Source: Candidatus Fimenecus sp.
Lineage (GTDB): Bacteria; Bacillota; Clostridia; Oscillospirales; Acutalibacteraceae
Assembly: GCA_045632525.1 (NCBI GenBank)
Contig: JAZQWV010000046.1
Location: 574-64,573 of the forward strand
Length of the DNA stretch: 64,000 bases
Direction: 5' to 3'
The notes under the pieces were generated by a model. It worked only from the letters and a program-made list of their open reading frames with translations. It made no database searches and was not told where the DNA came from. Below are positions 49,508-64,000 of this stretch, one piece after another; position 1 is the stretch's first letter; every line of letters begins with the position of its first letter. The translations under genes and the position numbers were made by a program.

Positions 49508-49561
49508 TGGTGCGGGTAACAGGACTTGAACCTGCAAGTCTTGCGACACATGAACCTGAAT
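49508..49561 (-). pseudogene. 3' half of host tRNA-Leu(CAG): anticodon loop to CCA (attL of island 2)
   Basis: Minus strand reads ATTCAGGT-TCATG-TGTCGCAAGACTT-GCAGGTTCAAGTCCTGT-TACCCGC-ACCA. No 5' half is adjacent. Confidence 0.8.
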
Positions 49562-50113: not shown

Positions 50114-50184
50114 CCGCCCCTCGCCAAAAGTGCGGTTATTTCTTTAACCCATTATTAGGCTGACCGTCTATCGGTAGCCTCTCT
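50100..50184 (-). ncRNA. candidate antisense antitoxin RNA overlapping the toxin 3' end
   Basis: Minus-strand TTGACA, 16 nt, TATAAT at 50218..50191. Minus-strand terminator (stem 50107-50142) followed by TTTCTTTTTT. Confidence 0.45.
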
Positions 50185-50258
50185 GCTTATATTATAGCAG
50201 ATTTTACGGATTTGTCAACTGTTTGGAATTAAGCTTATTAATGTAGGAGTTATTAATT

Positions 50259-51857: not shown

Positions 51858-51876
51858 CTCCATTGTTGCGACGTAG

Positions 51877-52596
51877 CTATTCTTGAATATCCTTCTGAAT
51901 ATGCTTTTTTATATGTTTTTGCGATGTATGATACCTTTTGATTAAGACACTAATAACAACCGTTAGTAATAAAAATATTGTAATTACCCAAGGAATAAGA
52001 AAATAAAACTTATATTTGCTAAGATACTTACTGCCCAAGGAAAACAAAACCAATAAAGCATTTGATATTATTGCTGTTAATCCTATTAATAAGTAATCTT
52101 TTTTATTCAACTTTTCTTCTTGGCTTTTGTGAATGGAATATCCTATTTGATTACCAATTCCAAAAAGAGCATATGCAAAAAAGAGTCCAAAATCCCCGAA
52201 AGGAATTGCAATTATAGTGAGAGACAAAATAAGTCCACTTATAATGTTTTGGTGCACTTTATTTATTTTACTAAGGTCCTCTATATTACAAAGTTTGTTA
52301 TACAGTAATTTAGTAAGAAAATTGCTCAAAAGGATTGCAAACAGCACCAAAATTTCCGGAATGTTATTAATTAACTCTTGAAGAAACTTGGAAGCGAAAA
52401 TGTTTTTGTCAATGTTGGGGGCATTAAAGATTGTTTCAAAGTAATATGGAAAAAGTATGAGTAAATAATCAATTAAGTATATTACTGCAAACCCTAACTT
52501 ATCAGAAAAATTAATCTTCCCTTTACTCTCTAACCAAACCATAATTACAAGGAATATTATAAAAAATACAGATATTGTGCTACAAATAGCATTCAT
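51877..52596 (-). CDS. polytopic membrane protein, unknown function
   Basis: About 6 TM segments. AGGAGAGG RBS. Confidence 0.55.
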   Translation of the reverse strand: MNAICSTISVFFIIFLVIMVWLESKGKINFSDKLGFAVIYLIDYLLILFPYYFETIFNAPNIDKNIFASKFLQELINNIPEILVLFAILLSNFLTKLLYNKLCNIEDLSKINKVHQNIISGLILSLTIIAIPFGDFGLFFAYALFGIGNQIGYSIHKSQEEKLNKKDYLLIGLTAIISNALLVLFSLGSKYLSKYKFYFLIPWVITIFLLLTVVISVLIKRYHTSQKHIKKHIQKDIQE

Positions 52597-52665
52597 AAAA
52601 CAAACCTCTCCTTTGATAAATATTTTAAAGGCAGTCTCACTTTTGATAGTGAGGCTGCCTTTCGT

Positions 52666-52977
52666 TTATCTGTTATTTAATCGTTCTGCGGTGCTAATAA
52701 GCACGTCAAGATCTTCTTGGGACATGTTACGAGTTAACTCATATAATTTTTGAACGAGCTGAGGTTCTTTTATATCTTCGTCGAAGAACTCTCTAGGAGT
52801 AACGCCTAGATATTCACATATATAAAGAAACTCTCCCAAGGACGGCATTGATCTGCCAGATGAAATACTCTGCATATAACTCTTGCTGTGTCCTAAGTCT
52901 GTGCTCATTCTATATTCCGAAACATTCTTTTTCGTTCTTAAAACAGAAATTCTATCCCTAATAAATTGTAAATCCAT
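52666..52977 (-). CDS. XRE-family HTH repressor
   Basis: VSEYRMSTDLGHSKSYMQSISSGRSMPSLGEFLYICEYLGVTPREFF. ATG 52977 after GAGGTG. Confidence 0.8.
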   Translation of the reverse strand: MDLQFIRDRISVLRTKKNVSEYRMSTDLGHSKSYMQSISSGRSMPSLGEFLYICEYLGVTPREFFDEDIKEPQLVQKLYELTRNMSQEDLDVLISTAERLNNR

Positions 52978-53014
52978 CGTCAACACCTCGCATTTATTAT
53001 TGTATAATAATTTT

Positions 53015-53076
53015 AGCGGTAATATTCACGATAAAATTACCGATTATAGTTGATAATTACCGCTAAAAGCGGTATA
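53015..53076. promoter_or_regulatory. divergent promoter/operator region with four ATTACCGNT half-sites
   Basis: AGCGGTAAT-12 nt-ATTACCGAT and ATTACCGCT-aaa-AGCGGTATA. The second site overlaps TATAAT at 53073-53078. Confidence 0.5.
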
Positions 53077-53120
53077 ATGTAGTAGGATATTCAAACTAAA
53101 ATCAGTAATATGCGATAAGG

Positions 53121-53609
53121 ATGTATAACGTGTTAAAGATTTTTACTGTTGCATTTTTCGGTCACAGATATATAGATAATCCGTTAAAGGTGGAAGAATT
53201 GCTTGAAGAGCAGATAAGAAAACTTATTAACGAAAAAGAATATGTTGATTTTATTGTTGGACGCAACGGCGAGTTTGACCAGTGCGTTTCGTCAGCGGTG
53301 CTTCGTGTACGAAAAAATTATAGGGATGATAACAGCTCCCTTGTTTTGATACTACCGTACCCAACCGCCGAATACATTAACAACCATAATTATTATGAAG
53401 ATTATTATAGTGACATTGAAATTTCGCATGCAGCTTCAAAAGCGCACCCGAAATCTGCCATACAAATCCGCAACCGTGAGATGGTAGACAGAGCTGATTT
53501 GGTTATTTGCTATATTGAGCACAACGAGGGCGGTGCCTATAAAACCGTAAAATATGCTTCCGAGCAGAATAAACCCATAATCAATCTTGCTGATTGTGTT
53601 GACTATTGA
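53121..53609 (+). CDS. SLOG-superfamily protein (DUF1273 / YpsA / YoqJ-like)
   Basis: FFGHR..., IVGRNGEFDQ, RNREMVDRADLVICY...GGAYKTV. The start may be GTG 53130. Confidence 0.65.
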   Translation: MYNVLKIFTVAFFGHRYIDNPLKVEELLEEQIRKLINEKEYVDFIVGRNGEFDQCVSSAVLRVRKNYRDDNSSLVLILPYPTAEYINNHNYYEDYYSDIEISHAASKAHPKSAIQIRNREMVDRADLVICYIEHNEGGAYKTVKYASEQNKPIINLADCVDY

Positions 53610-53623
53610 AAAGGAGAAGAAAA

Positions 53624-53806
53624 ATGAAAGTTTTTAAATTTATAGTAGTAAGTATCTTGACTTTAATTACAATTCAAACCGCATATTTTGCTTTATTATA
53701 TAAAGCCAATACAGCAACCGGGACTTTTCTTATATGTTTAGGGATAACACTATTTGTCGCTTGTGATGGCGGCTTGGAGAAGAAAAACGAATCGTCTTCT
53801 AAATAA
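53624..53806 (+). CDS. small two-TM membrane protein
   Basis: AAGGAG RBS. MKVFKFIVVSILTLITIQ... Confidence 0.5.
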   Translation: MKVFKFIVVSILTLITIQTAYFALLYKANTATGTFLICLGITLFVACDGGLEKKNESSSK

Positions 53807-53971
53807 CTTTCTTTTATTTACGGTTTGTGTTATAATGTTTTGTAGAAAACTGTCTACTTGACAGAGGGTGCGTTAGCTGTAAGTCCGTTTTATAGTACAC
53901 TAACTATGCTAAAATTTAAATAATAGATGGTGAAAGCCAAAATTGTTTAAATTATTAAAAGGAGAATTAAT

Positions 53972-54205
53972 ATGCCTGATATGAATGATTTTCATGCTTT
54001 TAAAAGCACAAGCGGCGGTGACGGAGGCGGTTCTAAAGGCGGCGGTGGTGGCAAATGGGACTTTGGCTGCGGCTGGGTTGTGATAGTAGTTGTCGCTTAT
54101 ATGCTAATACATTTTATTTTCAGTGGAGCTAGTTGGGATGCAATAGACACTCTTTTAGGACTTGGTTTTCTTGCATTTTTGTTTGCAAGATCGCTTTTTA
54201 GATAG
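53972..54205 (+). CDS. small Gly-rich membrane protein
   Basis: AAGGAG RBS. GGDGGGSKGGGGGKW followed by two TM helices. Confidence 0.5.
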   Translation: MPDMNDFHAFKSTSGGDGGGSKGGGGGKWDFGCGWVVIVVVAYMLIHFIFSGASWDAIDTLLGLGFLAFLFARSLFR

Positions 54206-54215
54206 GATTGACAAG

Positions 54216-54416
54216 ATGAATGTTTTTAATAAAGAAATATATGCAAAAAATCTACGCGAGTATTATATAAAAAATTATGGCGAAAATGAAGCGGATATAT
54301 GGTATGAGCAACCGGCAGTTAATGTTTGGGTGTTCGAACGTGCTAGTAAGATTATCACACTTAAAAGTCATGTACTGACCGGTGAAGTAACAAAATTTGA
54401 AGAAGAAAAAGGTTGA
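54216..54416 (+). CDS. small hypothetical protein (66 aa)
   Basis: Internal ATG of track ORF 54162..54416. Weak RBS. Confidence 0.35.
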   Translation: MNVFNKEIYAKNLREYYIKNYGENEADIWYEQPAVNVWVFERASKIITLKSHVLTGEVTKFEEEKG

Positions 54417-54458
54417 TTCAATATTTAATTGTATTGTTGATTATTCAGGAGGTTTAAT

Positions 54459-54836
54459 ATGGGTGGTTATATAAAAAGAGATGCTGTGCAAAGATTTGAA
54501 ACTATGGCTTTAAATACCAAGGTTAATAAAGAAATCTTTGATGCTTTTAAAGACCATTGCAAGGAAATGGGGTATCCTATGAATGTTATGCTCGAAACAT
54601 TCATGCAGCAATATGCGAATGGAAGATTTAATTTAAACTCAGAAGATATCCTTAAATGGAAAAATGATGACTATGATGTTGAAACTTTGAACACAACATT
54701 TAACAAAGAAATTTATCTAAGCTTTAAATCCAAATGTAAGGGTAATGGATATTTTGTAAAACATGTAATAATGGCATTTATGGAAAAGTTTGCAAGTAAG
54801 AATTTAATTTTGGAATATGTATGGTTTGAAAATTGA
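54459..54836 (+). CDS. tandem-repeat DNA-binding-like protein (two RHH-like modules)
   Basis: LNTKVNKEIFDAFKDHCKEMGYPMNVMLETFMQQYA and LNTTFNKEIYLSFKSKCKGNGYFVKHVIMAFMEKFA. AGGAGG RBS. Confidence 0.5.
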   Translation: MGGYIKRDAVQRFETMALNTKVNKEIFDAFKDHCKEMGYPMNVMLETFMQQYANGRFNLNSEDILKWKNDDYDVETLNTTFNKEIYLSFKSKCKGNGYFVKHVIMAFMEKFASKNLILEYVWFEN

Positions 54837-54885
54837 AATTAAACATATTAATTAACATTGTCGTGCAATGAATGAGGTATAATTA

Positions 54886-56262
54886 ATGTTTTATGTATAT
54901 AGATTCTTAGATAAAACTAAAAATGTTATTTATGTAGGTAAATCAAAACAGGATTTAGAACAACGTTTTAGAGGACATTTGCATTTACCAGAAGAATGTT
55001 ATGATCAAGTATATAAAATCGAATACATAGAGTGCTCTACGGAATCGGATATGTCGATTAAAGAAATTTATTACATTAACAAGTATCGAAATACTAATTT
55101 TTTCTTTAATGTGCTGGATACTACCGAATTGCCAACAAGTGTTACCTTCGATGATAAATGGAAGCAGTACAAAGGACCTTTGGGTTCTCATTTTCACAAA
55201 TCAATTAATTATAAAAAAGGTTATACCAGTGAAAAAACGGTACGATACAACAAAGATGGCTCTATAGACAAACGAAAGACCAATAAAAAGAAAGGTGATT
55301 CTTCGTTTGTCGAAGGCTTTACAAGTGATGAAGTTGATTTAATAATTAAGCAACTTATTAAAAATATTAATGAGGCAACAAATAATAATCAGGAACAGAT
55401 TAGATTTAGAAATTTGATGATGTTTATGTTAAGCATAAACCTACCTTTAAAAACAAATGATTTCTTAAATCTTAAGTACAAAGATTTGTTTGATAGTAAG
55501 GATAAATTAAAATCTGTTGAAATGAAGTTGAGTAGATTTTATAAAGACACTATCCTTAAAGTTCCCTTACGAAAAAATGTTCGTAAGATAATATTGGCGT
55601 ATACCCAAAGATACAACATGTCTTACAGTGAAAATTCAGAAGATTATCTTTTTCTTTCGCGTGAACATCAAATTATTTCACCAATATCTTGGGGTCGAAT
55701 CCTTTTAGACACATCCAAAGCAGCAGGGATTACTAAAAGCATTGGTGCAGAATCAATTCGAAAAACATATGGGATCAATGTATACACCCGTTCCGAAGAC
55801 AAACTTAATGCATTGCTGTTCTTAGGGGAACTGTGGGGACACATTCGTGAAGCTCAGATAATACGTTATTTGAATCTTTCTGAAGATGAGATTGATTACA
55901 AGTATTATTTTGGCGAAGCCTATGCAATCGGAAAGGTGAGTTTATCTAAAATCAAATGTTTAAAAAATAATGATGAATCTTCAAAAAAAGATTTGATTCC
56001 CGATACTCTTTCTAAGAAAAGATTTGCTCAAATCCCGAAAAAGACTATTAATCCATCTAAAAAAACTTCTAAAAAGAAACGGCAAGTATTCCCTGTCGAG
56101 AAAAAGGTAGAGATAATTAAGAAAAATTTAAATGATAAAATCCTAATAAAAACGCTTGCAGAAGAGTATAAAATTTCAATGAATACAATATGTAATTGGA
56201 TAACTTTATATAAGAAATACGGCGAGTCGGGTTTGGAAGATAGGCGTTACAAAAACGAATAA
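54886..56262 (+). CDS. GIY-YIG domain / degenerate tyrosine-recombinase-like domain / IS3-OrfA-like HTH fusion protein
   Basis: YVYRFLD..VIYVGKS..RF..H (GIY-YIG). ESIRKTYG and LWGHIREAQIIRYL align to recombinase box II/Tyr region but lack the first Arg and both His. C-terminal LAEEYKISMNTICNWI HTH. Confidence 0.55.
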   Translation: MFYVYRFLDKTKNVIYVGKSKQDLEQRFRGHLHLPEECYDQVYKIEYIECSTESDMSIKEIYYINKYRNTNFFFNVLDTTELPTSVTFDDKWKQYKGPLGSHFHKSINYKKGYTSEKTVRYNKDGSIDKRKTNKKKGDSSFVEGFTSDEVDLIIKQLIKNINEATNNNQEQIRFRNLMMFMLSINLPLKTNDFLNLKYKDLFDSKDKLKSVEMKLSRFYKDTILKVPLRKNVRKIILAYTQRYNMSYSENSEDYLFLSREHQIISPISWGRILLDTSKAAGITKSIGAESIRKTYGINVYTRSEDKLNALLFLGELWGHIREAQIIRYLNLSEDEIDYKYYFGEAYAIGKVSLSKIKCLKNNDESSKKDLIPDTLSKKRFAQIPKKTINPSKKTSKKKRQVFPVEKKVEIIKKNLNDKILIKTLAEEYKISMNTICNWITLYKKYGESGLEDRRYKNE

Positions 56263-56310
56263 TAGTTGCAAAACAAACAGTTATTTTCAAGGATGTGAAA
56301 AACAAGTTTT

Positions 56311-57063
56311 ATGACAGAATGGATATGGGATGGCGAAATGGATTGTGGTTGGGAAGATCTATCGTGCTTGCTAGTAAAGAAATGTGATAATTTTACTAAG
56401 ACCTTATTAGAAACAACAAGTTTTTCGCCTATAGAAGAAAGCAAATCACTTATCACTGCGGAATGTATGCAAAGGTTCGAAAGTATTGTAAGCATCTTGG
56501 CAGAAGATATAAAAGGTGGTGTAGACTACCAATATGAAGATTTATTTGAAGATTTCCCAAATGCTAAAAAACTTAATTGTTGGATTCTTCTCGGCTCATT
56601 AACCGAAACCACATTACAAATGTTTCTAGCTTTTTACATAGAAGATTATAAAAACACAAAATGGCAACAATGGGAAGATTTTAAGTTGGAGCAAGTACGC
56701 ACCCCGATTATTGAATGTATCCAAAAACTAGTCAACGATGGCATTCTGGAAGCGGCTCATGCACGGTCATTGAAAGATGCTATTAGAGATACTATTAAGT
56801 TGCATACCCGGGAACATGATGTTCAGAAAATAATGCTCGATGAATTGATTCAACTATTAAGCAAGTTGGAGTTATTCGATGAAGATGAACTCACATATTT
56901 AAAAGGAATCCAATCTAATAGAAACGGAATACACTCGTTCCAGAAAAGATCTATAGGGACGTGGAATGACTTACAATATAGTGTTCGTTTCTTTTGCTTC
57001 TTATTGGAGTGGGTGGTTTTCCATCTACCTGATATACCTGATGAAGCGTACTATCAAGATTAA
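56311..57063 (+). CDS. hypothetical protein
   Basis: 250-aa ORF, helical, no recognisable motif. Start uncertain. Confidence 0.4.
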   Translation: MTEWIWDGEMDCGWEDLSCLLVKKCDNFTKTLLETTSFSPIEESKSLITAECMQRFESIVSILAEDIKGGVDYQYEDLFEDFPNAKKLNCWILLGSLTETTLQMFLAFYIEDYKNTKWQQWEDFKLEQVRTPIIECIQKLVNDGILEAAHARSLKDAIRDTIKLHTREHDVQKIMLDELIQLLSKLELFDEDELTYLKGIQSNRNGIHSFQKRSIGTWNDLQYSVRFFCFLLEWVVFHLPDIPDEAYYQD

Positions 57064-57104
57064 ACCTTTATCAATCAAGATTTAAAACAACTAAGGAGAA
57101 TAAT

Positions 57105-57935
57105 ATGGCAGTTAAAATAAGCAAATTACTTTGTGCTATGTTGGCATTAATGATTTTTATGACCGCTTGTGGTAACACTAAAGAGCAAACTAAATGTGGA
57201 TCGTGTGGCGAAAGCATTAGTGGCAATGCGAAATTCTGCTCTAATTGTGGTGCCGGAATAGCCGTTGATAAAGAAGAAACTACTACTTCAGAGTCCTCTA
57301 ACAGCGAGACTAAATGTACTCACACTTGGCTTGACGCTACATGCTCTTCGGCTAAAAAATGTGAATTGTGTGGAATTATTGAAGGCAACCCCCTTTCTCA
57401 TAATTGGAGTGAAGCATCATGCACTTCACCTAAAAAATGCACATTATGTGGACAAACAAGCGGCAAAGCAAAAGGACATCAATGGATGGATGCTACATAC
57501 GAAAATCCCAAGTATTGTGTTATTTGTGGGGTCGAGTCTGGAGAACCTTTGGTAGATCCTAATTATGACAAATATATTATGGCAGCACATCTTTACCAAG
57601 CGGTAATTGATTCTGCCAAATTCCCATCATCTGTTCGTATCGAACGAGCATATTATATTGGCGATCTTGGGCAAGGGTATCCTGCTGTTAGATTAGAGTG
57701 TGCTGCCGCCAATTCAATGGGTGGTAGTGGAATACTCTATGGTGTTGTTATACAATATCCGGCAGTGGGATATGAAGATGATCCGTATGCCGATCATATA
57801 TATGCTTATGAAGACAAATATTGTTTTGAATGTAATATATATGATAATTGTCCGGTTCTAAATTATAATGGTTATGAAAAGTTAGATATTTCACGCATTG
57901 AAAGTGTACATGAAAACGATATTAATTTTAATTAA
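57105..57935 (+). CDS. lipoprotein with zinc-ribbon and three Cys-rich H.W...C....K.C..CG repeats
   Basis: Signal peptide ending MTAC (lipobox-like). CGSCGE..FCSNCG, then three repeats. AAGGAG RBS. Confidence 0.6.
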   Translation: MAVKISKLLCAMLALMIFMTACGNTKEQTKCGSCGESISGNAKFCSNCGAGIAVDKEETTTSESSNSETKCTHTWLDATCSSAKKCELCGIIEGNPLSHNWSEASCTSPKKCTLCGQTSGKAKGHQWMDATYENPKYCVICGVESGEPLVDPNYDKYIMAAHLYQAVIDSAKFPSSVRIERAYYIGDLGQGYPAVRLECAAANSMGGSGILYGVVIQYPAVGYEDDPYADHIYAYEDKYCFECNIYDNCPVLNYNGYEKLDISRIESVHENDINFN

Positions 57936-58088
57936 CTATATGATTTTCTAAGATTTTCAAATATCATTTTCTTCTTTTATAAATTAATAAATTGTTTAAA
58001 ATTTCATATAACTCTTTACTGCTGTTACATAACTCTACACAACTCTACGGGGTGAGGTTTGAGCAGTAAAAGAGTGGCAAAACCAGGG

Positions 58089-58117
58089 TTGACAAAGGGT
58101 TTTCCTCATGTTAAACT
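58089..58117 (+). promoter_or_regulatory. promoter at the start of the ORF-free region
   Basis: TTGACA, 17 nt (ending TGT), TAAACT. Confidence 0.45.
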
Positions 58118-58123
58118 AATAAT

Positions 58124-58285
58124 GACCTATTTAAAATAAAGCAGGAGTGTTTTTAAAAGATAACGAAAATTGCAATGTTCCGAGAGGGTTAATTGCGCTT
58201 GTTTGTTATGCTTGGCTCCTGTGTATAGGGCAATGGCAAAAGGACTGCAAGTAAGCACTTACCTTTCGGGGTAGGTGCTTTTTTG
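58124..58285 (+). ncRNA. candidate ~160-nt small RNA (promoter to intrinsic terminator)
   Basis: No RBS-associated ORF. Ends in AGCACTTACC-tttcg-GGTAGGTGCT plus T6; the T:G wobble in the stem is only valid on the plus strand. Confidence 0.4.
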
Positions 58286-58399
58286 TTATCTTTTTGCCTT
58301 CTTTTTATGTTTTGTCCTCCGGTAAGTGACGGGGCCAAAATAAACACATAAAAGAAGGAGTATTCAAAATGATTGTATTTGACAACACGGGAAGTTAGT

Positions 58400-59260
58400 T
58401 GCACCAAAGGTTTGGTGCCGAGAGCTACAGTCTGAGGTCTGCGACAGGCTGAGAATCACTGGCAGAAAGCCCTTGAAGTCGGGTTAGACTTCATCAGCCG
58501 ATGCCCTAAGGCTGATTATCCGTATGACCCGTAGGCGTGGTAATACGGAATTAAAGAGCTATCACTGTTCTGGCAACGGACAGGGTGATATATTAAATGG
58601 GCATCACGGAATGTAAGTGACCTATTACGTTGCTCGGTTTTATGATTACCCGTAATTAATCAGAACCCACATTCACGCTGTGGTCCAAAATACGATAGTA
58701 GGAAAAGCCGTGATATACAAAGCCCGTCACGAAGGCAATGTGAATTTTAAAGTGCGGATAGCAGAGCCGTTACGAAACGAGGATTGTTCGACTGCGAACC
58801 TGCGTACACGGCAGACCGGATGGTATAGTGTAAAAAAACCACTTGTGCACAGTGGGCGAAGATGCAAAGTGCAATATACAGATATGCTTTCACTTATGGC
58901 AATCTGTGAACGAAAATAAGTGCATAACGACGGCTTGGATTCAGCCATAAGTTATTGACGAAAATTATGGAATCCACGACGTTTGAGAGTTCCGTCGTAA
59001 AATAAAACTGCTCAAGCGGTGGTGCTACCGTCCATTAAGGGAATTCTCCAGCCCTTATGGGAATTGCACACGAAGTTTCCGGGGTTTAATCGGTAATGAA
59101 AATCCCCGCCGAACGAGCCCTTAGTCTCGGCCAGGCTGAAATGCCTTGCACTCGGCGTAGCGTCAGTAAATAATACAAGGTTATTTACACTCTTGAACTA
59201 CAAGAGAACACGCACGGAAAATCTATTAATCTTGCGTTAAAGTGTAAATAGATTAAGCCA
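58400..59260. ncRNA. candidate large structured ncRNA (GC-rich, helix-dense, ORF-free); identity unknown
   Basis: Hand counts give 45-62% G+C per 60-nt line versus about 28% in the neighbouring gene. Many nested helices. Only mutually overlapping RBS-less ORFs. Confidence 0.4.
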
Positions 59261-59312
59261 AGTACTAACCTTATTTTACAGCAGAATACCAGAACAGAAC
59301 TTTCGCTTTGGG

Positions 59313-60045
59313 ATGATTTATGACTGTCTCTTCGAGAGTGTATGATTTACTTTTCGAGAGCAAGTTGCACCTGCTAAACAAACCTTCGGCTCTCTGCAAG
59401 TTGTCATTCGTGGAATGAATGACAAGCTGCAGGAAGCCGAAGAGAATAACAAACAAACTACAAAGCAGGTGCTATGACTATCATTTCTATGATGATAAAT
59501 GACTGTCCTTTTGAAATGATTTATGACTCTCTTTTTGGGAGCCGAGCCGTTTCTATTGGACGAAGTCAGATAGAAACGGCTCGGAGACGTAGTCGGAGAG
59601 CCGAGATTAGCAGGGCATAATACCCCGCGTCAAAGAAGAATCAGTAAGAAATGAAGGTTCGTACACACCTTTGACAGTGGGTGTATTATGCCCTGCGTAC
59701 TTTCATTTTAAGAGCCATATAGAGTAATTATAGATTAATATTAGATTACATTTTACAATGACTTTAATTTGTATATGGCTCTTGTATGATTGATGATTTA
59801 CTTTTCGAAATGATATATTACCTATCTTTTTGAAATGATATTTTGAAATTACTTTCATTCCCCTAAAAAAGGATTGTGCTGACCGTCCTTTCGAGATTAC
59901 TTTCTTTTCGATATCATGTCAGCACAATCTGCTGAAAGATTTTTATGCTTTACGTTTTGATATGATATATGACTTTCGTTTCGAAATGAGCAATGCGTTC
60001 CTATTTTCATTTTGAAATGCTTTATGACTGTCATTTCGAAATGAG
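59313..60045 (+). repeat. array of about 12 direct iterons, consensus (T)TATGACTGTC(N)TTTCGAAATGAG, interspersed with three long inverted repeats
   Basis: Copies start at 59313, 59341, 59497, 59519, 59791, 59813, 59838, 59881, 59898, 59965, 60000 and 60020. The best copy contains the 14-bp palindrome TCATTTCGAAATGA. Confidence 0.7.
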
Positions 60046-60211
60046 GGGGCAAAATTTTCGTCAACAGAATTATTTTCGTCATGAGAACCCCAAATATTTT
60101 ATTGACGAAAATACATCTATTATTACTATTCTCGTACACAGTTTTTCACGCAAGGCTCGGTCCCTATCCTTGCGTTGAAATAAAATTTTTAGAGAAAGGA
60201 GACGGTTTGCT

Positions 60212-61165
60212 ATGTCAGATTCTAATAATATTACAGTGCTAAACCCGGGTCTGTATAAAAACTTGTTGGCACAGGTTGAAGCAATTTACAACCACAGTAA
60301 TGAACTTAGTTTTAAAACAAGAGCTCGGTACTTTGAAGCAACAAAAAGGTTATGTAAGTTTTTAGCCGATAATTTTCGTTTGCAAAACTTCAAGAATGTG
60401 GAAGACCGGCACTTTAAAGCGTATGTGGAACACCTGAAAGAAAACAATTCCGCTGCAACTATTCAATCCGATCTGTCGGGCATACGGTATTTCCACAGAA
60501 AATCCGGTAGTAAAAACAGGCTATCCCCTAATAGCAAGTTAAATCTGCCCAAACGAGCGACGGGTGTAAAAGACCATTCGCTATTAGATAAAGAGCTTGT
60601 CAATATTCGACAGTGGGCTATCCAAACAGGTCGGCAGGATGCGGTAATTGCGATAGACTTTTCCAGTGAATTTGGTCTACGGCTTGAAGAAATCTGCACA
60701 CTGAGAGTTGAATACCTTATGTCTGCATTAAAAACAGGACAGCTCGTCATAAAAGGCAAAGGCGGTCAGACAAGGGCTATTGATTTAAGCGCAAAGCAGC
60801 GCGGTATTATTACCGATAATTTGAACTATGCCAGGTGTTCAGGGCGGTATCCAAGAGATTATTTAATCTCAAGAAGTGAAAAGGGCGGCGTACAGCGAGA
60901 AAAGCGTTCTTTGCAGAATTGGATGAGTTATAACAGAAAATACTTTATGGTAGAAAACCGTGAGGATTTGAGTGAAGACGGTAAAAAGAAAAGAACTGAA
61001 ACAATCTCATGGCACAGTCTGAGACACACCTATGCACAAAGAACCTATGAAGAAGCTTTAAAAGAAAGACCGAAGAAAGCCCGAAAGATTGTAAGCGAAA
61101 ACTTAGGTCACCATCGGACTGAAGTAACAAGAATTTATTTGGCCGATAAGCCAAAGAAAAAGTAA
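60212..61165 (+). CDS. tyrosine recombinase (317 aa, plasmid/resolvase-like size)
   Basis: FGLRLEEICTLRV, KGKGGQTR, WHSLRHTYAQ, LGHHRTEVTRIYL: the full catalytic set. Confidence 0.85.
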   Translation: MSDSNNITVLNPGLYKNLLAQVEAIYNHSNELSFKTRARYFEATKRLCKFLADNFRLQNFKNVEDRHFKAYVEHLKENNSAATIQSDLSGIRYFHRKSGSKNRLSPNSKLNLPKRATGVKDHSLLDKELVNIRQWAIQTGRQDAVIAIDFSSEFGLRLEEICTLRVEYLMSALKTGQLVIKGKGGQTRAIDLSAKQRGIITDNLNYARCSGRYPRDYLISRSEKGGVQREKRSLQNWMSYNRKYFMVENREDLSEDGKKKRTETISWHSLRHTYAQRTYEEALKERPKKARKIVSENLGHHRTEVTRIYLADKPKKK

Positions 61166-61377
61166 TCTATTAATTAAAATTGTGAAGGAAGAATTTAAAT
61201 TGACTACAATATCCTGCTGACGAAAATCTGTAGGATTGATATATAGGGACAAAAAATAGGAAGAATGTAACGGCGGTGACATCCGTCACCGCCTGTAAGG
61301 AGTATTTATTATGTTATATGTTTCAAGGCCAGCCTCCGGCGGAAATGGAGGCAAATAATATAGGAGGTAAAGTGTCC

Positions 61378-61584
61378 ATGAAAGATATTAGCGTTCCCAT
61401 TTGGCAGAAGAGTAATTTAACACTCGATGAAGCCGCCGCTTATTCCGGCATCGGTAAAAACACTATGCGTAATCTCTGTAACGCAGAAGATTGCGACTTT
61501 GTGTTATGGATTGGTGCAAAGCGGTTAATCAAGAGACAAAAATTAGACGAATATCTTGCTAATCGTACTCGCATTGAAAGATAA
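61378..61584 (+). CDS. excisionase/MerR-type HTH protein
   Basis: LTLDEAAAYSGIGKNTMRNLC...LWIGAKRLIKRQKLDEYL. AGGAGG upstream. The longer track ORF starts inside a 9-bp GC hairpin. Confidence 0.65.
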   Translation: MKDISVPIWQKSNLTLDEAAAYSGIGKNTMRNLCNAEDCDFVLWIGAKRLIKRQKLDEYLANRTRIER

Positions 61585-61681
61585 CAACTGAAAAAGCAGG
61601 TTTTCCGTCGCAGTATGTGGCTCTCACACACGCCACATACTGTGTTGGGAAATCGCAGGACAAGGAAAGGAGCGTAGTTTA

Positions 61682-61918
61682 ATGTCCCTTTGCTTTTCCA
61701 GTTATAACGAGGCTTATCAGACTATGTTTACCGAGTATAAAGATATTGTTTCCGTTAAGGAAGCATCCATAATGCTTAATACCGGCAGAAAACAAATTTA
61801 TAAACTCTTAAAGCAAGGTAAGCTTGATAAGCTCGAACATAACGCTAAAGGATTTTTAATCACGAAGCGTTCGATTGTAGCTTATGTATTAAATGCTTCA
61901 CAAGAAGTATCTGCATAA
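61682..61918 (+). CDS. excisionase-family HTH protein
   Basis: VSVKEASIMLNTGRKQIYKLLKQGKL. AAAGGAG RBS. Confidence 0.65.
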   Translation: MSLCFSSYNEAYQTMFTEYKDIVSVKEASIMLNTGRKQIYKLLKQGKLDKLEHNAKGFLITKRSIVAYVLNASQEVSA

Positions 61919-62032
61919 GCTACACCGCCTGTTTTCAGGCGGCATACATGCTTTAAAATAGCCGTAAATCTATTTAATGCGGCTTTATGAAGGAGAAGTT
62001 CGAATTGTTAAAGTGTGTGAAAGGAAAGAAAA

Positions 62033-63214
62033 ATGGTAAAAGGATCCGTACAGGAAAAAGGTGGCTATTTGCATACCGTTATCAGTTACACCGATAAAGA
62101 CGGTAAGCGAAAGCAAAAATGGCAAAGCACAGGGCTTACAGCCAAAGGTAACAAGCGTAAGGCACAAGAATTTTTGAAAGAACGCATTGATGAGTTGGAG
62201 ATGACACTTGAACGTGAAGAAACTCAAATACCCGATATGCCGTTCTCGCAGTTTATGTCAAACTGGCTTACGATGATTAAACCCACCGTTTTAATTACCA
62301 CCTACGGCAGCTATCAGTATTTCATTGAAAAGAGAATTAACCCCTATTTTGATGAAAAGAATATTACACTGCAAAAGATACGAACAGTGGATATTCAAGA
62401 GTATTACAACACAATGTTGTCGAAGGGTACGAAATGGAATTCGGTTGCAAAGCATCATGCAATCATTCGCAAGGCACTCGATTATGCGGTTAAGATGGAT
62501 TACATATTAGTAAACCCCGCAGTAAAAATCGAAACACCTAAGCGACAAAAGTTTATTGCTGAGCATTATAACCGTGAGGAGCTTCAGGAACTTTTTGAAG
62601 CAGTAAAGGGTGATTTGCTTGAAGTTCCCGTTATACTCTCGGCGTTCTATGGGCTTCGAAGAAGTGAGGCTTTAGGACTAAAGTGGAGTGCGATTGATTT
62701 CGAGCAGAAAACCCTATGTATTAAGCATACTGTGTGCCGAATATCTGTTGACGGCAAGGATGTAATTGTTCGCAAAGACACTACGAAAAATAAAACAAGT
62801 CTTAGAACGTTGCCCCTAATACCTGATGTTGAAAAATTATTGCTTAAAACCAAAAAGCAACAAGAGAGCAACCGAAGAAAATGTCGCAACGCATATAACA
62901 AGGAATTCCTTGATTATGTGTGCGTAGATGATATGGGGAATCTTTTAAGGCCGGATTATCTGTCACAACATTTACAGACTGTGCTCAAAAGAAATAACCT
63001 AAAGCATATTCGGTATCACGATTTGCGACACTCTTGCGCTTCGCTATTACTTGCCAACGGTGTATCTTTAAAAGAAATCCAAGACTGGTTAGGCCATTCG
63101 GATTTCAGTACAACGGCAAATATTTATAGCCATTTAGAGTATGGAGCCAAGGTCAAGTCTGCTAACAAGATTGCAGAAAACTTGAGCCTTGAAGAAAAGA
63201 CAAAGGACGGGTAA
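62033..63214 (+). CDS. int: tyrosine integrase with N-terminal arm-binding-type domain (Tn916-Int-like layout)
   Basis: GSVQEKGGYLHTVISYTDKDGKRKQKW, GLRRSEALGLKWSAIDF, YHDLRHSCASLL, LGHSDFSTTANIYSHL. Confidence 0.9.
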   Translation: MVKGSVQEKGGYLHTVISYTDKDGKRKQKWQSTGLTAKGNKRKAQEFLKERIDELEMTLEREETQIPDMPFSQFMSNWLTMIKPTVLITTYGSYQYFIEKRINPYFDEKNITLQKIRTVDIQEYYNTMLSKGTKWNSVAKHHAIIRKALDYAVKMDYILVNPAVKIETPKRQKFIAEHYNREELQELFEAVKGDLLEVPVILSAFYGLRRSEALGLKWSAIDFEQKTLCIKHTVCRISVDGKDVIVRKDTTKNKTSLRTLPLIPDVEKLLLKTKKQQESNRRKCRNAYNKEFLDYVCVDDMGNLLRPDYLSQHLQTVLKRNNLKHIRYHDLRHSCASLLLANGVSLKEIQDWLGHSDFSTTANIYSHLEYGAKVKSANKIAENLSLEEKTKDG

Positions 63215-63237
63215 ATCCCGTCCCATACATAACTTAT

Positions 63238-63270
63238 TTCTAACAGAATTCTAACGGATTTTTTGTAGAA
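63238..63270. promoter_or_regulatory. TTCTAAC motif cluster (candidate arm sites)
   Basis: TTCTAAC-agaa-TTCTAACGG ... TGTAGAA. Confidence 0.4.
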
Positions 63271-63367
63271 ATACCCTCATTTTTGACATTAGAATCACTT
63301 GAATTTCGAGGGCTTTTCGGATAAAGAAAATCTCTCAAACCCGCATAAACACTGGGTTTGAGAGATG

Positions 63368-63454
63368 ATGGTGCGGGTAACAGGACTTGAACCTGCACAG
63401 CCTTGCGACCATTAGAACCTGAATCTAACGCGTCTGCCAATTCCGCCATACCCG
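63368..63454 (-). tRNA. island-borne tRNA-Leu(CAG), intact, 87 nt with encoded CCA
   Basis: GCGGGTA/TACCCGC acceptor, GCG/CGC D-stem, TTAGA-TTCAGGT-TCTAA anticodon arm, long variable arm, GCAGG-TTCAAGT-CCTGT T arm. Confidence 0.9.
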
Positions 63455-63483
63455 CATATATGACTTAAATCCTTTCAAAAATC

Positions 63484-63519: not shown

Positions 63520-63643
63520 ATAAGTGTTTTTTTGAGATTTTTGAACAAACAGGAATCAAGGTCAAAAATCGTGAAACCCCTTGATTTTATGCGGTTCTTC
63601 TAAAGAAACAGCAGAGGTCTGAAAGAGCCTCTCGCGCGTTAGT

Positions 63644-63682
63644 ACCTGAATCATGCGTGTTTGCCAATTTCACCATACCCGC
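63644..63682 (-). pseudogene. 5' half of host tRNA-Leu(CAG): acceptor to anticodon loop (attR of island 2)
   Basis: Minus strand reads GCGGGTA-TG-GTG-AAATTGGCAAA-CAC-G-CATGA-TTCAGGT, then non-tRNA sequence. Confidence 0.8.
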
Positions 63683-64000
63683 ATATTAAATTTTCTATTT
63701 TTTCTTTTTATAAAAAACTACTTTGTAACCGGGCCCACGTGACACTTGCGGTGCCCAAAATCTTTTTTCACTTGGAGCGTGAAAAGATTTTGACCGCTGC
63801 GTCTTTTTAGCCTTCGCTTCATCCTCCACAGGAGGCGCTCTGCTAAAAACTGCCAGTTCCGTCACATCCGCATATATTAAAATGCTCGTTTATAATAACA
63901 TTTTGCCCCTTAAAAGTCAAGGAGAAATGGGAGAGATAAAAAGCAAAAGGATGGGATTTACCCATCCTTTTTGTGTCTATGTCTTAAATGAGTTTTGCCT

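What the first reader, a model, noticed from the sequence alone, without database searches (positions are those of the whole stretch)
58089..59280. ORF-free, GC-rich, helix-dense ~0.9-1.2 kb segment: candidate large ncRNA of unknown class
No ORF with an RBS lies between the lipoprotein stop (57935) and the recombinase start (60212). The track ORFs here overlap each other on both strands. My hand counts of lines 58441, 58501, 59041 and 59101 give 33, 28, 27 and 37 G+C per 60 nt, against 17/60 in line 57841. Many local and nested helices are visible. Examples are 58401-58418 (GCACCAAA/TTTGGTGC), 58474-58493 (TGAAGTC/GACTTCA) and a multi-helix unit at 58927-58998: ACGACGG/CCGTCGT enclosing GGATT/AATCC and CCATAA/TTATGG. 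Further examples are 59080-59108 (CGGGGTTT/AAAATCCCCG) and 59166-59188 (GTAAATAA/TTATTTAC). A GC spike of this kind in an AT-rich genome, inside a mobile element next to tRNA genes, is the context in which large ornate RNAs (ROOL, GOLLD) have been reported. I cannot assign it to any known family from memory.
Basis: partly seen in the sequence, partly recalled or inferred. Interest (0 to 1): 0.75.

Follow-up and report, generated by a model that had tools for sequence, protein, structure and literature searches.

The report
New large structured RNA beside recombinase
The gene-free stretch encodes a previously uncatalogued folded RNA of about 1 kb that travels with a recombinase gene inside small mobile islands of gut and rumen bacteria, and its function is unknown.

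Summary

- **No coding signal.** Window 57936-60211 has no conserved ORF. Variable columns split 156/158/153 by codon phase, and 237 of 296 indels are not multiples of three.
- **Conservation.** The segment recurs in 29 of 36 loci that carry a related tyrosine recombinase (59-97% aa identity) and have enough upstream sequence. It always lies upstream on the same strand. The loci are Acutalibacteraceae/Clostridia gut and rumen MAGs.
- **Covariation.** 29 pairs change on both sides against 12.7±2.4 in shuffles (A1), and 24 against 10.0±2.3 (A2). An H-type pseudoknot at 58932-58975 covaries.
- **Strand.** A promoter conserved in 13 loci, an intrinsic terminator and a G·U over A·C bias place the RNA on the + strand.
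- **Known families.** None of the 4227 Rfam 15 families matches, here or in seven homologous loci.
- **Anatomy.** Leader d0 with terminator (58139-58350), variable 5' domain d1 (58352-58750) and conserved core d2 (58752-59345). A repeat/hairpin array (59300-60047) and an Xer-like recombinase (60212-61165) follow. All lie in a 13.9-kb tRNA-Leu island.

Function is inferred only. My best guess (~0.35) is an RNA cofactor of the island's recombinase and oriT-like DNA-processing module, analogous to the sgm-sRNA of SGI1.

The parts
58089..58117 (+). Sigma-70-type promoter TTGACA-N17-(TG)TTAAACT. The predicted transcription start is near 58124.
   Evidence: Found by the consensus scan. The -35 box and extended -10 box are strictly conserved in 13 loci, while the 17-nt spacer and upstream sequence vary.
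58139..58350 (+). Leader domain d0. It is a structured 5' region that ends in an intrinsic terminator (stem 58253-58280 plus a U-run) nested in longer stems.
   Evidence: nhmmer finds it in 20 loci, with a weak divergent version in 7 more. The terminator was found, and its stem keeps pairing through changes in L036 and L063.
58352..58750 (+). Variable 5' domain d1 of the RNA. It is found in clade A only and is replaced by an unrelated ~0.9-kb domain in clade B.
   Evidence: Found in 34 loci. Covarying hairpins lie at 58401-58418, 58428-58451, 58474-58493, 58493-58516, 58573-58633 and 58667-58683. Clade B replacement is shown.
58752..59345 (+). Conserved core domain d2 of the RNA, the family-defining part.
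   Evidence: Found in 36 or more loci, including clade B at about 67-72% nt identity. It has 141 predicted pairs, 24 of them with changes on both sides against 10.0±2.3 in shuffles and 7-13 in slid controls.
58803..58884 (+). Optional 82-nt insertion within d2. L077 carries a different insert at the same site.
   Evidence: Present only in the window and in L002, L006, L017, L036, L081 and L083, and absent from the other copies.
58924..58975 (+). Pseudoknotted unit. Stem AUAAC/GUUAU spans 58924-28/58951-55. Hairpin GGCU/AGCC spans 58932-35/58943-46. Its loop GGAUUC (58937-42) pairs with GAAUCC (58970-75). The invariant loop UUGACGAAAAU lies at 58954-58965.
   Evidence: Compensatory changes occur in all three helices: GGUA/UACC, GGCA/UGCC, and GGGUAUC/GGUACCC or GAUGCCC in clade B.
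59300..60047 (+). Array of seven ~24/42-nt direct repeats (ATGAYTTATGACTNTC..TTTCGARATGA) interleaved with long near-perfect hairpins and an AT-rich palindrome. It is a candidate oriT or recombinase site region and may also be the 3' part of the transcript.
   Evidence: Repeat family D1 and inverted repeats I1, I10 and I24. Presence/absence polymorphism has end points in the repeats. Extra repeat copies occur in clade B.
59384..59442 (.). Hairpin with 26-nt arms.
   Evidence: Inverted repeat I1. The stem is invariant and the loop is variable among 27 loci.
59542..59584 (.). Hairpin with 20-nt arms.
   Evidence: Inverted repeat I10. It is deleted precisely in L026.
59610..59696 (.). Hairpin with 17-nt arms, followed by a U-rich tract. 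It is a possible 3' terminator.
   Evidence: Inverted repeat I24.
60050..60142 (.). Control region of the recombinase gene. It holds three TGACGAAAA boxes (60055-, 60073-, 60103+) and the promoter TTGACG-16-TACTAT (60102-60129). It is also a hot spot where cargo genes are inserted in other loci.
   Evidence: Motif enrichment is 5 of 9 window hits inside the module against 1.09 expected per 64 kb. The promoter was found. Cargo junctions are shown.
60212..61165 (+). Xer-like tyrosine recombinase of 317 aa, with a SAM-like core-binding domain, a catalytic domain and the R-K-H-R-H-Y residues.
   Evidence: Pfam, NCBIfam and PDB 4a8e XerC-like. 80 related loci were retrieved.
61199..61300 (+). Conserved region downstream of the recombinase. 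It holds a fifth TGACGAAAA box (61218) in a hairpin loop with promoter-like boxes, then the hairpin GGCGGTGAC/GTCACCGCC.
49508..49536 (.). Left att repeat of the 13.9-kb island that carries the module.
   Evidence: Perfect 29-nt match to 63369-63397.
63369..63455 (-). tRNA-Leu(CAG). Its 3' end (63369-63397) is the right att repeat. The integrase (62033-63214) and Tn916-type Xis (61276-61584) lie next to it.

Best explanation
**Shown.** Window ~58124-59345 on the + strand specifies a large, multi-domain structured RNA of a family absent from Rfam 15. A conserved promoter starts it. A leader (d0) holds an early intrinsic terminator. A variable 5' domain (d1) and a conserved, pseudoknotted ~0.5-kb core (d2) follow.

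The RNA gene is a backbone element of small integrative islands of gut and rumen Clostridia. It sits 0.6-1.0 kb upstream of, and on the same strand as, an Xer-like tyrosine recombinase gene. That distance grows to 2-3.4 kb when cargo genes are inserted. An array of direct repeats and long hairpins separates the two.

**Inferred.** The RNA is not a mere 5' UTR. I think it most likely acts as a dedicated cofactor or regulator of the island's DNA-processing module, meaning the recombinase plus the repeat/hairpin array, which may be an oriT-like or resolution site. SGI1 offers the precedent. It needs its sgm-sRNA together with the tyrosine-recombinase-type relaxase MpsA/MpsB and oriT.

The early terminator would limit how much full-length RNA is made. 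The long perfect hairpins could be processing or termination sites. The invariant UGACGAAAAU loops repeat the box found at the recombinase promoter. They could bind the same protein, or the complementary DNA strand.
For: **Identity as an RNA**
- No conserved ORF, no 3-nt periodicity and frame-breaking indels.
- 80-88% nt conservation in about 30 loci, and 67-72% in clade B.
- Covariation above the shuffle and slide controls.
- A covarying pseudoknot.
- Hairpin-tip insertions of 12 to 280 nt and a hairpin module that changes position between clades.
- A promoter with conserved boxes and a free spacer, and an intrinsic terminator.
- G·U over A·C bias of 116:30 and 70:28 in strand-neutral, covariation-validated local helices.
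- No Rfam match.

**Link to the recombinase**
- 29 of 36 recombinase loci with at least 2.4 kb upstream carry d2, down to 59.5% aa identity.
- The TGACGAAAA/ACGAAAAT box is shared by RNA loops and the recombinase control regions.

**Not simply a UTR**
- The recombinase has its own promoter.
- In at least 7 loci, oppositely oriented cargo genes with their own terminators lie between the RNA and the recombinase.

**Precedent**
- SGI1 has a 650-700-nt primary RNA with a promoter-proximal terminator. The RNA is required together with MpsA/MpsB and oriT (PMC9299015).
- MOB_M relaxases are tyrosine-recombinase relatives, and 96% of them lie next to an integrase (bioRxiv 10.64898/2026.01.13.699239).
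- The region upstream of pCW3 tcpM has the same layout of direct repeats, an AT-rich palindrome and GC hairpins.
Against: - No transcript data exist.
- Seven of 36 recombinase loci lack the RNA, so the recombinase does not strictly need an RNA gene in cis.
- The recombinase has a normal core-binding domain and scores as Xer-like. Its similarity to TcpM is only a 53-aa C-terminal local match. No pCW3-type plasmid appeared in the tblastn search. Relaxase function is therefore unproven, and it may simply be a resolvase.
- The order here is RNA, then array, then gene. In SGI1 the sRNA core lies between oriT and mpsA.
- Strand statistics are only moderately asymmetric. RNAalifold also finds a comparably paired fold on the minus strand.
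- A transferred single DNA strand would give the same covariation.
Confidence: 0.35

Rival explanations
1. It is an autonomous 'ornate' RNA of mobile elements, in the manner of ROOL, GOLLD or OLE. The folded, possibly oligomeric RNA would do something for the island or host that is unrelated to the recombinase, such as defence, counter-defence or a scaffold. The linkage would be mere backbone synteny.
For: - Its size is about 1 kb, with many short covarying helices, a pseudoknot, invariant loops and optional peripheral insertions.
- It has its own promoter.
- It resides in islands carrying defence-type cargo: AbiE and a methyltransferase in L090, and a weak TIR hit in the window.
- Seven recombinase loci lack it.
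- ROOL, GOLLD and OLE are mobile-element or Firmicute RNAs of unknown function that form homo-oligomers (PMC12286853).
Against: - The position next to the recombinase and array is constant down to 60% protein identity.
- A sequence box is shared with the recombinase control regions.
- No hit appeared in viral contigs for the one conserved d2 pattern scanned.
- There is no homology to ROOL, GOLLD or OLE models.
Confidence: 0.25
2. The folded molecule is single-stranded DNA, not RNA. The region and the hairpin array would be the leading region, origin of transfer or single-strand origin of a mobilizable island. They would fold after nicking and transfer to prime complementary-strand synthesis or early expression.
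For: - Covariation and G·T tolerance fit ssDNA equally well.
- The long perfect hairpins and direct repeats upstream of a tyrosine-recombinase-type gene mirror the pCW3 oriT region.
- TAGCGT (59158-59163) matches the CS-6 motif of ssoA origins (from my own knowledge). A 6-mer is weak evidence.
Against: - A promoter conserved in its boxes but not its spacer, and a U-tract terminator on the same strand, argue for transcription.
- A UUCG-closed terminator loop, an invariant UGAAAU loop and an H-type pseudoknot are RNA-typical.
- To my knowledge, known ssDNA origins are 150-300 nt, not 1 kb.
Confidence: 0.12
3. It is a replication primer or control RNA. The long structured transcript would run into the iteron-like, AT-rich array and prime theta replication of the excised island, as ColE1 RNA II does. 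The d0 leader and terminator would be the copy-control target, and the Xer-like recombinase would resolve multimers.
For: - The backbone has no Rep gene.
- The promoter, early terminator and ~1-kb structured RNA are directed toward seven 24-nt-phased repeats and a 26% G+C stretch.
- Recombinase homologues sit on small Firmicute and Pasteurellaceae plasmids, where resolution is the usual role.
Against: - To my knowledge, RNA-primed Rep-less replicons are not known in Firmicutes.
- d2 has long invariant single-stranded stretches and a pseudoknot, more than a primer would need.
- In cargo-bearing and clade B loci the geometry from RNA to array is kept, but nothing shows origin activity.
Confidence: 0.1
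4. It is a purely cis-acting long leader or attenuator that controls read-through from the upstream XRE gene or promoter into the recombinase and downstream excision genes.
For: - An early terminator is nested in alternative stems.
- A small XRE HTH gene lies directly upstream on the same strand in many loci.
Against: - The recombinase has its own promoter.
- Cargo genes in the opposite orientation interrupt the path in at least 7 loci.
- About 1 kb of conserved, covarying structure is far beyond known attenuators.
Confidence: 0.08
5. It is a decayed protein gene or non-functional spacer whose apparent helices arise by chance in related sequences.
For: The sequences are closely related (80-90% identity), which inflates shuffle-based statistics, as the caveat in the output states.
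Against: - There is no periodicity and no shared ORF.
- The count of pairs with double changes is the measure with 0-1% false positives. It is 29 against 12.7±2.4 and 24 against 10.0±2.3, and it exceeds all slid controls.
- Helices are rebuilt with different sequence in clade B.
Confidence: 0.02

Closest known systems
ROOL, GOLLD and OLE large ornate bacterial RNAs
   Same: They are large noncoding RNAs (OLE is about 610 nt, from my own knowledge) with many conserved helices and unknown biochemical function. ROOL and GOLLD are typical of mobile elements of Firmicutes and rumen or gut samples. ROOL, GOLLD and OLE form RNA-only homo-oligomers (PMC12286853).
   Different: There is no sequence or structure match to their Rfam models, even at E<=10. 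This RNA sits in a fixed position upstream of a tyrosine recombinase and a repeat/hairpin array, not next to tRNA clusters in prophages. It has a leader with a terminator and a swappable 5' domain.
SGI1 mobilization module: sgm-sRNA, MpsA/MpsB and oriT
   Same: An integrative island backbone combines a tyrosine-recombinase-type protein, a nearby repeat-containing cis site and a non-coding RNA. The RNA is made from a strong promoter as a long primary transcript (650-700 nt), and a promoter-proximal terminator limits its amount (PMC9299015).
   Different: The hosts are Gammaproteobacteria. The functional sgm-sRNA core is small and lies between oriT and mpsA. No elaborate conserved fold is reported there. 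Here the structured part is about 1 kb, lies upstream of the array, and the protein carries its own core-binding domain. Homology was not tested because the sequences were not at hand.
MOB_M (TcpM/MobK/MpsA) tyrosine-recombinase-like relaxases and their oriT regions
   Same: The catalytic residues are of tyrosine-recombinase type. The gene lies next to an integrase in a chromosomal island, as for 96% of MOB_M genes. The upstream region has direct repeats, an AT-rich palindrome and GC hairpins, as upstream of tcpM in pCW3.
   Different: The window protein scores as a complete Xer-like recombinase. It shares only a 53-aa C-terminal local match with TcpM. No RNA is known for TcpM or MobK.
IS110/IS1111 bridge (seek) RNAs
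   Same: A structured RNA is encoded in the non-coding region just upstream of a recombinase gene of a mobile element, and its loops repeat DNA sequences of the element.
   Different: Those recombinases are of the DEDD/serine type and the RNA is about 150-200 nt with programmable loops (from my own knowledge). Here the recombinase is of tyrosine type and the RNA is five times larger. The repeated box is invariant, so no guide function is evident.
ColE1 RNA II / RNA I
   Same: A long structured transcript is directed toward a cis-acting DNA region. There is an early control element, no Rep protein, and a Xer-type recombinase for resolution.
   Different: That system is known only in enterobacterial plasmids (from my own knowledge). 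No origin activity, RNase H site or antisense RNA is shown here.

Membership tests
Any Rfam 15 family (ROOL, GOLLD, OLE, HEARO, raiA, group I/II introns, riboswitches, ribozymes) | Covariance-model score at or above the family's gathering threshold | tested here: not met
   Only two tRNAs pass in the 64-kb window. In 57900-60250 the best hits have E=0.18 or worse, to unrelated families and far below gathering scores. Seven homologous loci give none in the region.
Structured non-coding RNA (generic) | Conserved sequence without coding signal | tested here: met
   No shared ORF. Codon-phase counts of variable columns are 156/158/153, and 237 of 296 indels are not multiples of 3.
Structured non-coding RNA (generic) | Base pairs kept through compensatory changes above controls | tested here: met
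   A1 has 29 pairs and 71 cells with double changes, against 12.7±2.4 pairs in shuffles and 7-12 pairs and 7-20 cells in slid controls. A2 has 24 pairs and 69 cells, against 10.0±2.3 and 7-13 pairs and 12-27 cells.
Structured non-coding RNA (generic) | Transcription signals on the modelled strand, and a detected transcript | tested here: inconclusive
   The promoter, the terminator and the G·U bias support the + strand. No expression data were available.
MOB_M (TcpM-type) relaxase, for the adjacent protein | Specific sequence relationship to TcpM, MobK or MpsA beyond general tyrosine-recombinase homology | tested here: inconclusive
   BLASTP against TcpM gives 36% identity over 53 aa at the C-terminus, with pairwise E=2e-6. 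The window protein and TcpM both hit Xer models in NCBIfam. No pCW3-type plasmid appears among the tblastn hits.
MOB_M (TcpM-type) relaxase, for the adjacent protein | Gene located beside an integrase in an island, with an oriT-like repeat/hairpin region upstream | tested here: met
   Xis and Int, or a serine recombinase, follow within about 1 kb. The array is described and compared with pCW3.
MOB_M (TcpM-type) relaxase, for the adjacent protein | Site- and strand-specific nicking, and a requirement for conjugative transfer | not testable with these tools
   Needs mating and nicking assays.
SGI1 sgm-sRNA | Sequence or structure homology to sgm-sRNA, and a requirement for mobilization | not tested
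   The SGI1 sequence was not retrieved, so only the genetic layout was compared.
Integron (IntI with attI/attC cassettes) | Integron-integrase signature, and cassettes bounded by attC hairpins | tested here: not met
   NCBIfam integron-integrase models do not hit the protein, while Xer models do. Cargo genes are not flanked on both sides by the site.
IS110-type bridge RNA system | DEDD/RuvC-like recombinase with an upstream ~180-nt RNA whose loops match target and donor | tested here: not met
   The protein belongs to the Phage_integrase (tyrosine) family. The RNA is about 1 kb and the shared box is invariant.

The most novel reading that the evidence does not exclude
The RNA is an obligatory partner of the tyrosine recombinase. 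It would assemble with the enzyme and use its invariant UGACGAAAAU loops to recognise the matching boxes at the recombinase control regions and the array. Recognition could be by pairing with the complementary DNA strand or by presenting a mimic of the site. This would make it the first RNA-dependent, and potentially RNA-directed, tyrosine recombinase or relaxase system.
Probability: 0.07. Interest if true: 0.95.

Novelty: new variant of a known kind. Interest (0 to 1): 0.72.

Why it matters
Large, intricately folded bacterial RNAs are rare, and almost every class has taught new biology. Examples are ribozymes, RNA-guided enzymes and RNA cages.

This one is about 1 kb, modular and pseudoknotted. 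It is absent from Rfam and is carried by small integrative islands in animal and human gut Clostridia. It is also consistently tied to a tyrosine recombinase and an oriT-like array.

That link gives a concrete handle for finding its function, which ROOL and GOLLD still lack. It also connects to an open question: how tyrosine-recombinase-type relaxases work, and why SGI1 needs an RNA.

If the RNA takes part in DNA processing, it would reveal a new class of ribonucleoprotein recombination or mobilization machinery.

Tried and rejected
- **BLAST searches.** blastn of 58000-59320 against phage and plasmid collections gave no match.
- **Pattern scans.** A conserved d2 pattern found nothing in viral contigs and only 7 metagenome contigs.
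- **Exact-sequence look-up.** The look-up of the recombinase was empty.
- **Naive strand test.** G·U 623 against A·C 93 on the + strand fold is biased, so I rejected it. RNAalifold on the reverse complement gives a similar figure, and a no-GU fold was uninformative. A strand-neutral list of all helices was swamped by spurious long-range helices. Restricting it to local helices validated by Watson-Crick double changes gave a usable result.
The outer helix 58927-33/58992-98 and CCATAA/TTATGG are rejected, because their arms vary without compensation.
- **9-codon ORF.** The ORF at 58370-58399 is rejected as a gene, because its start codon is not conserved.
- **Cassette idea.** I considered that the recombinase gene and cargo genes are cassettes bounded by TGACGAAAA sites, integron- or dif-module-like. 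I dropped it because loci with the minimal recombinase unit have no site on the left, and cargo is flanked on one side only.
- **Small plasmids.** A small plasmid with a distant recombinase homologue has an extra ORF upstream, and the homologues carry no detectable d0, d1 or d2.
- **PADLOC.** The scan of the island cargo gave only a weak TIR hit.
- **Clade B 5' domain.** With three sequences it gave only weak covariation: 12 compensatory against 52 broken pairs.
- **Literature.** Searches found no description of this RNA.
Full report
**1. The observation**

The five hand counts of G+C are exact. Segment 58089-59280 is 42.8% G+C, against 35.3% for the window and 29.4% for the spacer after the upstream gene. 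Between the stop at 57935 and the recombinase start at 60212, the longest ORF is 79 aa, and the short ORFs overlap on both strands. All quoted inverted repeats are present. A 994-nt stretch folds better than dinucleotide shuffles on either strand (z = -2.5 and -3.8). That result alone decides little.

**2. Related sequences**

Nothing similar exists in the phage or plasmid collections.

*Recovery of homologous loci.* I used the neighbouring 317-aa tyrosine recombinase as an anchor. This recovered 80 loci from species-representative genomes. Nearly all are Acutalibacteraceae, Oscillospiraceae or Clostridia MAGs from goat, sheep, deer, camel and human gut. Several MAGs hold two or three copies, and many copies sit at contig ends.

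*Extent of conservation.* The non-coding DNA upstream of the recombinase is conserved at 80-88% identity in about 30 of these loci. The conserved block runs from about 57975-58139 to about 61270-61380, and the flanks differ. Profile searches split the region into three parts:
- d0 (58139-58350), found in 20 loci, with a weak variant in 7 more.
- d1 (58352-58750), found in 34 loci.
- d2 (58752-59345), found in 36 or more loci.

*A second clade.* Recombinases only 60-66% identical, found through the protein database, still have d2, the repeats and the same sequence boxes upstream. Their 5' domain is about 0.9 kb and unrelated in sequence.

*Strength of the linkage.* Of 36 recombinase loci with at least 2.4 kb of upstream sequence, 29 carry d2 on the same strand. 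It lies 609-1031 nt before the start codon in 22 loci, and 2.0-3.4 kb before it in 7 loci where cargo genes intervene.

**3. Not coding**

- No ORF is shared among the homologous regions.
- Gene callers left the 2.5-kb equivalent in L090 and L091 empty.
- Variable columns fall equally on the three phases (156/158/153).
- 237 of 296 indels relative to the window are not multiples of three.

**4. Structure**

*Whole-region counts.* RNAalifold on 26 sequences of alignment A1 gives 252 pairs in 44 helices over 58340-59345. Of all cells, 95.6% are paired. 29 pairs show changes on both sides, against 12.7±2.4 in shuffles (0 of 500 reach it) and 7-12 when partners are slid by 1-3 columns. 71 cells show double changes, against 7-20 in the slid controls.

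*Counts for d2.* For d2 I used 35 sequences, including the divergent clade (alignment A2). There are 141 pairs. 24 have double changes, against 10.0±2.3 in shuffles and 7-13 in slid controls. 69 cells show double changes, against 12-27. The count of double-change pairs is the measure the tool describes as rarely inflated by relatedness.

*Helices rebuilt with different sequence.*
- CGAA/UUCG becomes CAGAUC/GAUCUG in clade B.
- CACUUAU/AUAAGUG becomes GGUGG/CCACC in clade B.
- AAUCUAUU/AAUAGAUU covaries at three positions.

*Helices supported in window coordinates.*
- In d1: 58401-07/58412-18, 58428-34/58445-51, 58474-79/58488-93, 58493-99/58510-16, 58519-24/58544-49, 58573-78/58628-33, 58643-48/58657-62 and 58667-71/58679-83.
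- In d2: 58773-76/58787-90, 58924-28/58951-55, 58937-42/58970-75, 59107-12/59152-57, 59114-17/59126-29, 59166-70/59184-88, 59190-95/59201-06 and 59220-27/59247-54.

- The hairpin GGCU/AGCC (58932-35/58943-46) covaries as GGUA/UACC and GGCA/UGCC.
- Its loop GGAUUC (58937-42) pairs with GAAUCC (58970-75). In clade B this pairing is replaced by GGGUAUC with GGUACCC or GAUGCCC.
- Both are enclosed by AUAAC/GUUAU.

*Further RNA-like traits.*
- Insertions of 12, 14, 20, 82 and about 280 nt occur at hairpin tips or junctions.
- The hairpin CAGCCGAU(A/G)CUCUAAGGCUG lies in d1 in clade A, but inside a d2 insertion in some clade B members.
- Invariant loops include UGAAAU.

**5. Strand**

My first count on the + strand fold (G·U 623, A·C 93) is biased. 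The reverse complement gives a similar picture with its own fold.

A strand-neutral test is more informative. It lists local helices, treats G·U and A·C alike, and keeps only helices with a Watson-Crick double change. This gives G·U 116 against A·C 30 on the + strand for A1, and 70 against 28 for A2. The consensus energy also favours the + strand: -351.6 against -323.5, and -197.8 against -177.3.

Independent evidence agrees.
- The promoter TTGACA-N17-TGTTAAACT at 58089-58117 keeps both boxes and the spacer length in 13 loci, while the spacer sequence varies.
- A 12-bp stem with a UUCG loop and a U-run at 58253-58286 is a textbook intrinsic terminator, and its stem is kept through changes.
- In other loci a small XRE-type HTH gene on the same strand ends just before d0.

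I conclude that the functional strand is +, the same as the recombinase. Whether the folded molecule is RNA or a transferred DNA strand cannot be settled by sequence. The transcription signals and the scale favour RNA.

**6. Known families**

The full Rfam 15 library finds only two tRNAs in the window at gathering scores. In 57900-60250 at E<=10 it finds only noise. Seven homologous loci give no hit in the region either. Literature searches found no description of this RNA. It is therefore not ROOL, GOLLD, OLE, HEARO, raiA, a group I or II intron, or a known riboswitch or ribozyme.

**7. Surroundings**

*The island.* A perfect 29-nt direct repeat (49508-49536 and 63369-63397, the 3' end of tRNA-Leu) delimits a 13.9-kb island. 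Its right end reads RNA gene, array, recombinase, Tn916-type Xis, HTH, integrase, tRNA.

*Other loci.* Elsewhere the same module is followed by different integrases. These are a large serine recombinase with an HTH partner, or tyrosine integrases of 393, 414, 431 or 444 aa. In some loci the module abuts a sigma-factor gene fragment. Cargo differs between islands. L090 carries AbiE and a methyltransferase. The window carries a protein with a weak TIR hit. The module is thus a shared backbone of mosaic integrative islands.

*The array.* Between the RNA and the recombinase lies an array at 59300-60047. It holds seven ~24/42-nt direct repeats that contain the palindrome TTTCGAAA. It also holds hairpins with 26-, 20-, 17- and 12-nt arms, and an AT-rich palindrome. 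Copies differ by deletions whose end points lie in the repeats.

*The repeated box.* The 9-mer TGACGAAAA occurs nine times in 64 kb, where 1.09 are expected. Five of these fall in the 3.3-kb module:
- one in an invariant loop of the d2 pseudoknot unit (58956);
- three around the recombinase promoter, one of them forming its -35 box (60055-, 60073-, 60103+);
- one in a hairpin loop after the recombinase stop (61218).

The 8-mer ACGAAAAT adds sites in d0 (58163) and in d2 (58910). Clade B keeps the same arrangement. In at least 7 loci, cargo genes lie between the -35 and -10 elements of the recombinase promoter. These are cI-like HTH proteins and an ECF-like sigma factor, and most are on the opposite strand with their own terminators.

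**8. The recombinase**

It has a SAM-like core-binding domain, a catalytic domain and all the R-K-H-R-H-Y residues. It scores weakly on Xer models. Relatives at 24-36% identity sit on small Firmicute, Pasteurellaceae and Acinetobacter plasmids typed as non-mobilizable.

Three tyrosine-recombinase relatives are known to act as conjugative relaxases: TcpM, MobK and MpsA (PMC8152469). This MOB_M group is reported to be the commonest relaxase type in chromosomes and is often mis-annotated as integrase. 96% of its members lie next to an integrase (bioRxiv 10.64898/2026.01.13.699239). That is exactly the position seen here.

Pairwise BLASTP against TcpM gives only a 53-aa C-terminal match (E=2e-6 for the single comparison). 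Both proteins hit Xer models. Membership is therefore unresolved. The 391-bp region upstream of tcpM in pCW3 holds five direct repeats, an AT-rich palindrome and three GC hairpins. This is the same layout as the array here, at smaller scale.

**9. How it most likely works**

*Shown.* A conserved, covarying, + strand structured element has its own promoter and an early terminator. It is physically tied to the recombinase and array, and shares a sequence box with the recombinase control regions.

*Inferred.* The RNA is a trans- or cis-acting component of the island's DNA-processing machinery.

*Precedent.* The closest precedent is SGI1. There, transfer needs oriT, MpsA/MpsB and an RNA made as a 650-700-nt primary transcript. 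A promoter-proximal terminator limits its amount, and the transcript is then processed (PMC9299015).

*Proposed model.*
- The d0 terminator sets the level of full-length RNA.
- The long perfect hairpins serve as processing or termination sites.
- d2 is the functional core.
- Its UGACGAAAAU loops contact the protein that binds the same box on DNA, or contact the DNA itself.

I put about 0.85 on "a genuine structured RNA of a new family". I put about 0.35 on this particular functional reading.

*Rivals.*
- An autonomous ornate RNA (0.25).
- Folded single-stranded DNA of an oriT or sso region (0.12).
- A primer or control RNA of a Rep-less replicon (0.10).
- A purely cis-acting leader (0.08).
- Non-functional sequence (0.02).

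*Against an obligatory cis partnership.* Seven recombinase loci lack the RNA. They include a minimal ~5.5-kb island that has only a cI-like gene, the recombinase, an HTH gene and a serine recombinase.

**10. Novelty**

The kind is known: large structured RNAs of mobile elements. This family is not in Rfam and is not described in the searchable literature. Its constant coupling to a tyrosine recombinase and an oriT-like array is a new arrangement. I rate it a new variant of a known kind, with interest 0.72.

The most novel reading not excluded is an RNA-dependent tyrosine recombinase or relaxase (probability ~0.07).

Noticed in passing
window 49508-49536 and 63369-63397: A perfect 29-nt direct repeat of the tRNA-Leu(CAG) 3' end delimits a 13.9-kb integrated island (49537-63368). 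The island holds the whole finding.
   Followed up: yes
window 54886-56262 (+): An unusual 458-aa fusion protein combines an N-terminal GIY-YIG nuclease domain, a Phage_integrase catalytic domain and a C-terminal HTH_Tnp_1 domain. It is a second, atypical tyrosine-recombinase-like gene in the same island.
   Followed up: partly
window 50259-51857 (+): A 532-aa island cargo protein has a weak TIR-domain hit (Pfam CAP12/Pycsar TIR, E=5.5e-4; PADLOC TIR effector, E=2.8e-4). It is a possible defence gene. In L090 the equivalent cargo is AbiEi/AbiEii plus a methyltransferase.
   Followed up: partly
window 63399-63459, 63626-63686, 63850-63877: Three direct copies resemble the 5' half of tRNA-Leu (79-86% identity) to the right of the island. 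They may be remnants of tRNA genes or of earlier integrations. ARAGORN calls only the first as a tRNA.
   Followed up: no
window 60102-60142; L007, L011, L024, L044, L045, L068, L075: Between the -35 box (TTGACGAAAAT) and the -10 box / TTCTCGTACACAG of the recombinase promoter, other loci carry 1-3 kb of cargo. The cargo includes cI-like HTH proteins of 305-389 aa, an ECF-like sigma factor, and a 527-aa ORF in L011 that was not checked against any family. This is an insertion hot spot.
   Followed up: partly
L021, L023, L026, L039, L051, L052, L054, L057, L058, L067, L072 (about 0.6-1.5 kb after the recombinase): The module abuts a sigma-factor gene fragment with only region 2 (139 aa in L021), next to an HTH gene. 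This suggests islands inserted in a sporulation-type sigma gene, like the skin element in sigK.
   Followed up: partly
window 58370-58399 (+): A 9-codon ORF (MIVFDNTGS) follows a strong AAGGAG site at the d0/d1 junction. The RBS is sequestered in a stem (58295-58308 with 58346-58358). The ATG is absent in many homologues.
   Followed up: partly
window 58492-58511; L090 3009-3036, L077 312-339, L096 4-31: The hairpin CAGCCGAU(A/G)CUCUAAGGCUG, with a conserved 10-nt loop, occurs once per RNA. It lies in d1 in clade A and inside a d2 insertion in part of clade B. It looks like a movable RNA module.
   Followed up: partly
window 61267-61375 (+): After the recombinase gene come a covarying hairpin (GGCGGTGAC/GTCACCGCC), a short ORF with an RBS (ATG at 61308) and a second hairpin (CCUCC...GGAGG). 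They precede the Xis start and look like a leader or attenuator for the excision genes.
   Followed up: no
window 57105-57935 (+): A lipoprotein-like 276-aa protein has an N-terminal zinc ribbon and internally repeated Cys-rich units. The DNA repeats lie at 57319-57374 and 57397-57452.
   Followed up: no
L093-L095: A minimal island of about 5.5 kb has only a 72-aa ORF, a cI-like HTH gene, the recombinase homologue (64% identity), a 57-aa ORF, an HTH gene and a large serine recombinase. It has no RNA gene. This shows the recombinase can exist in an island without the RNA.
   Followed up: partly
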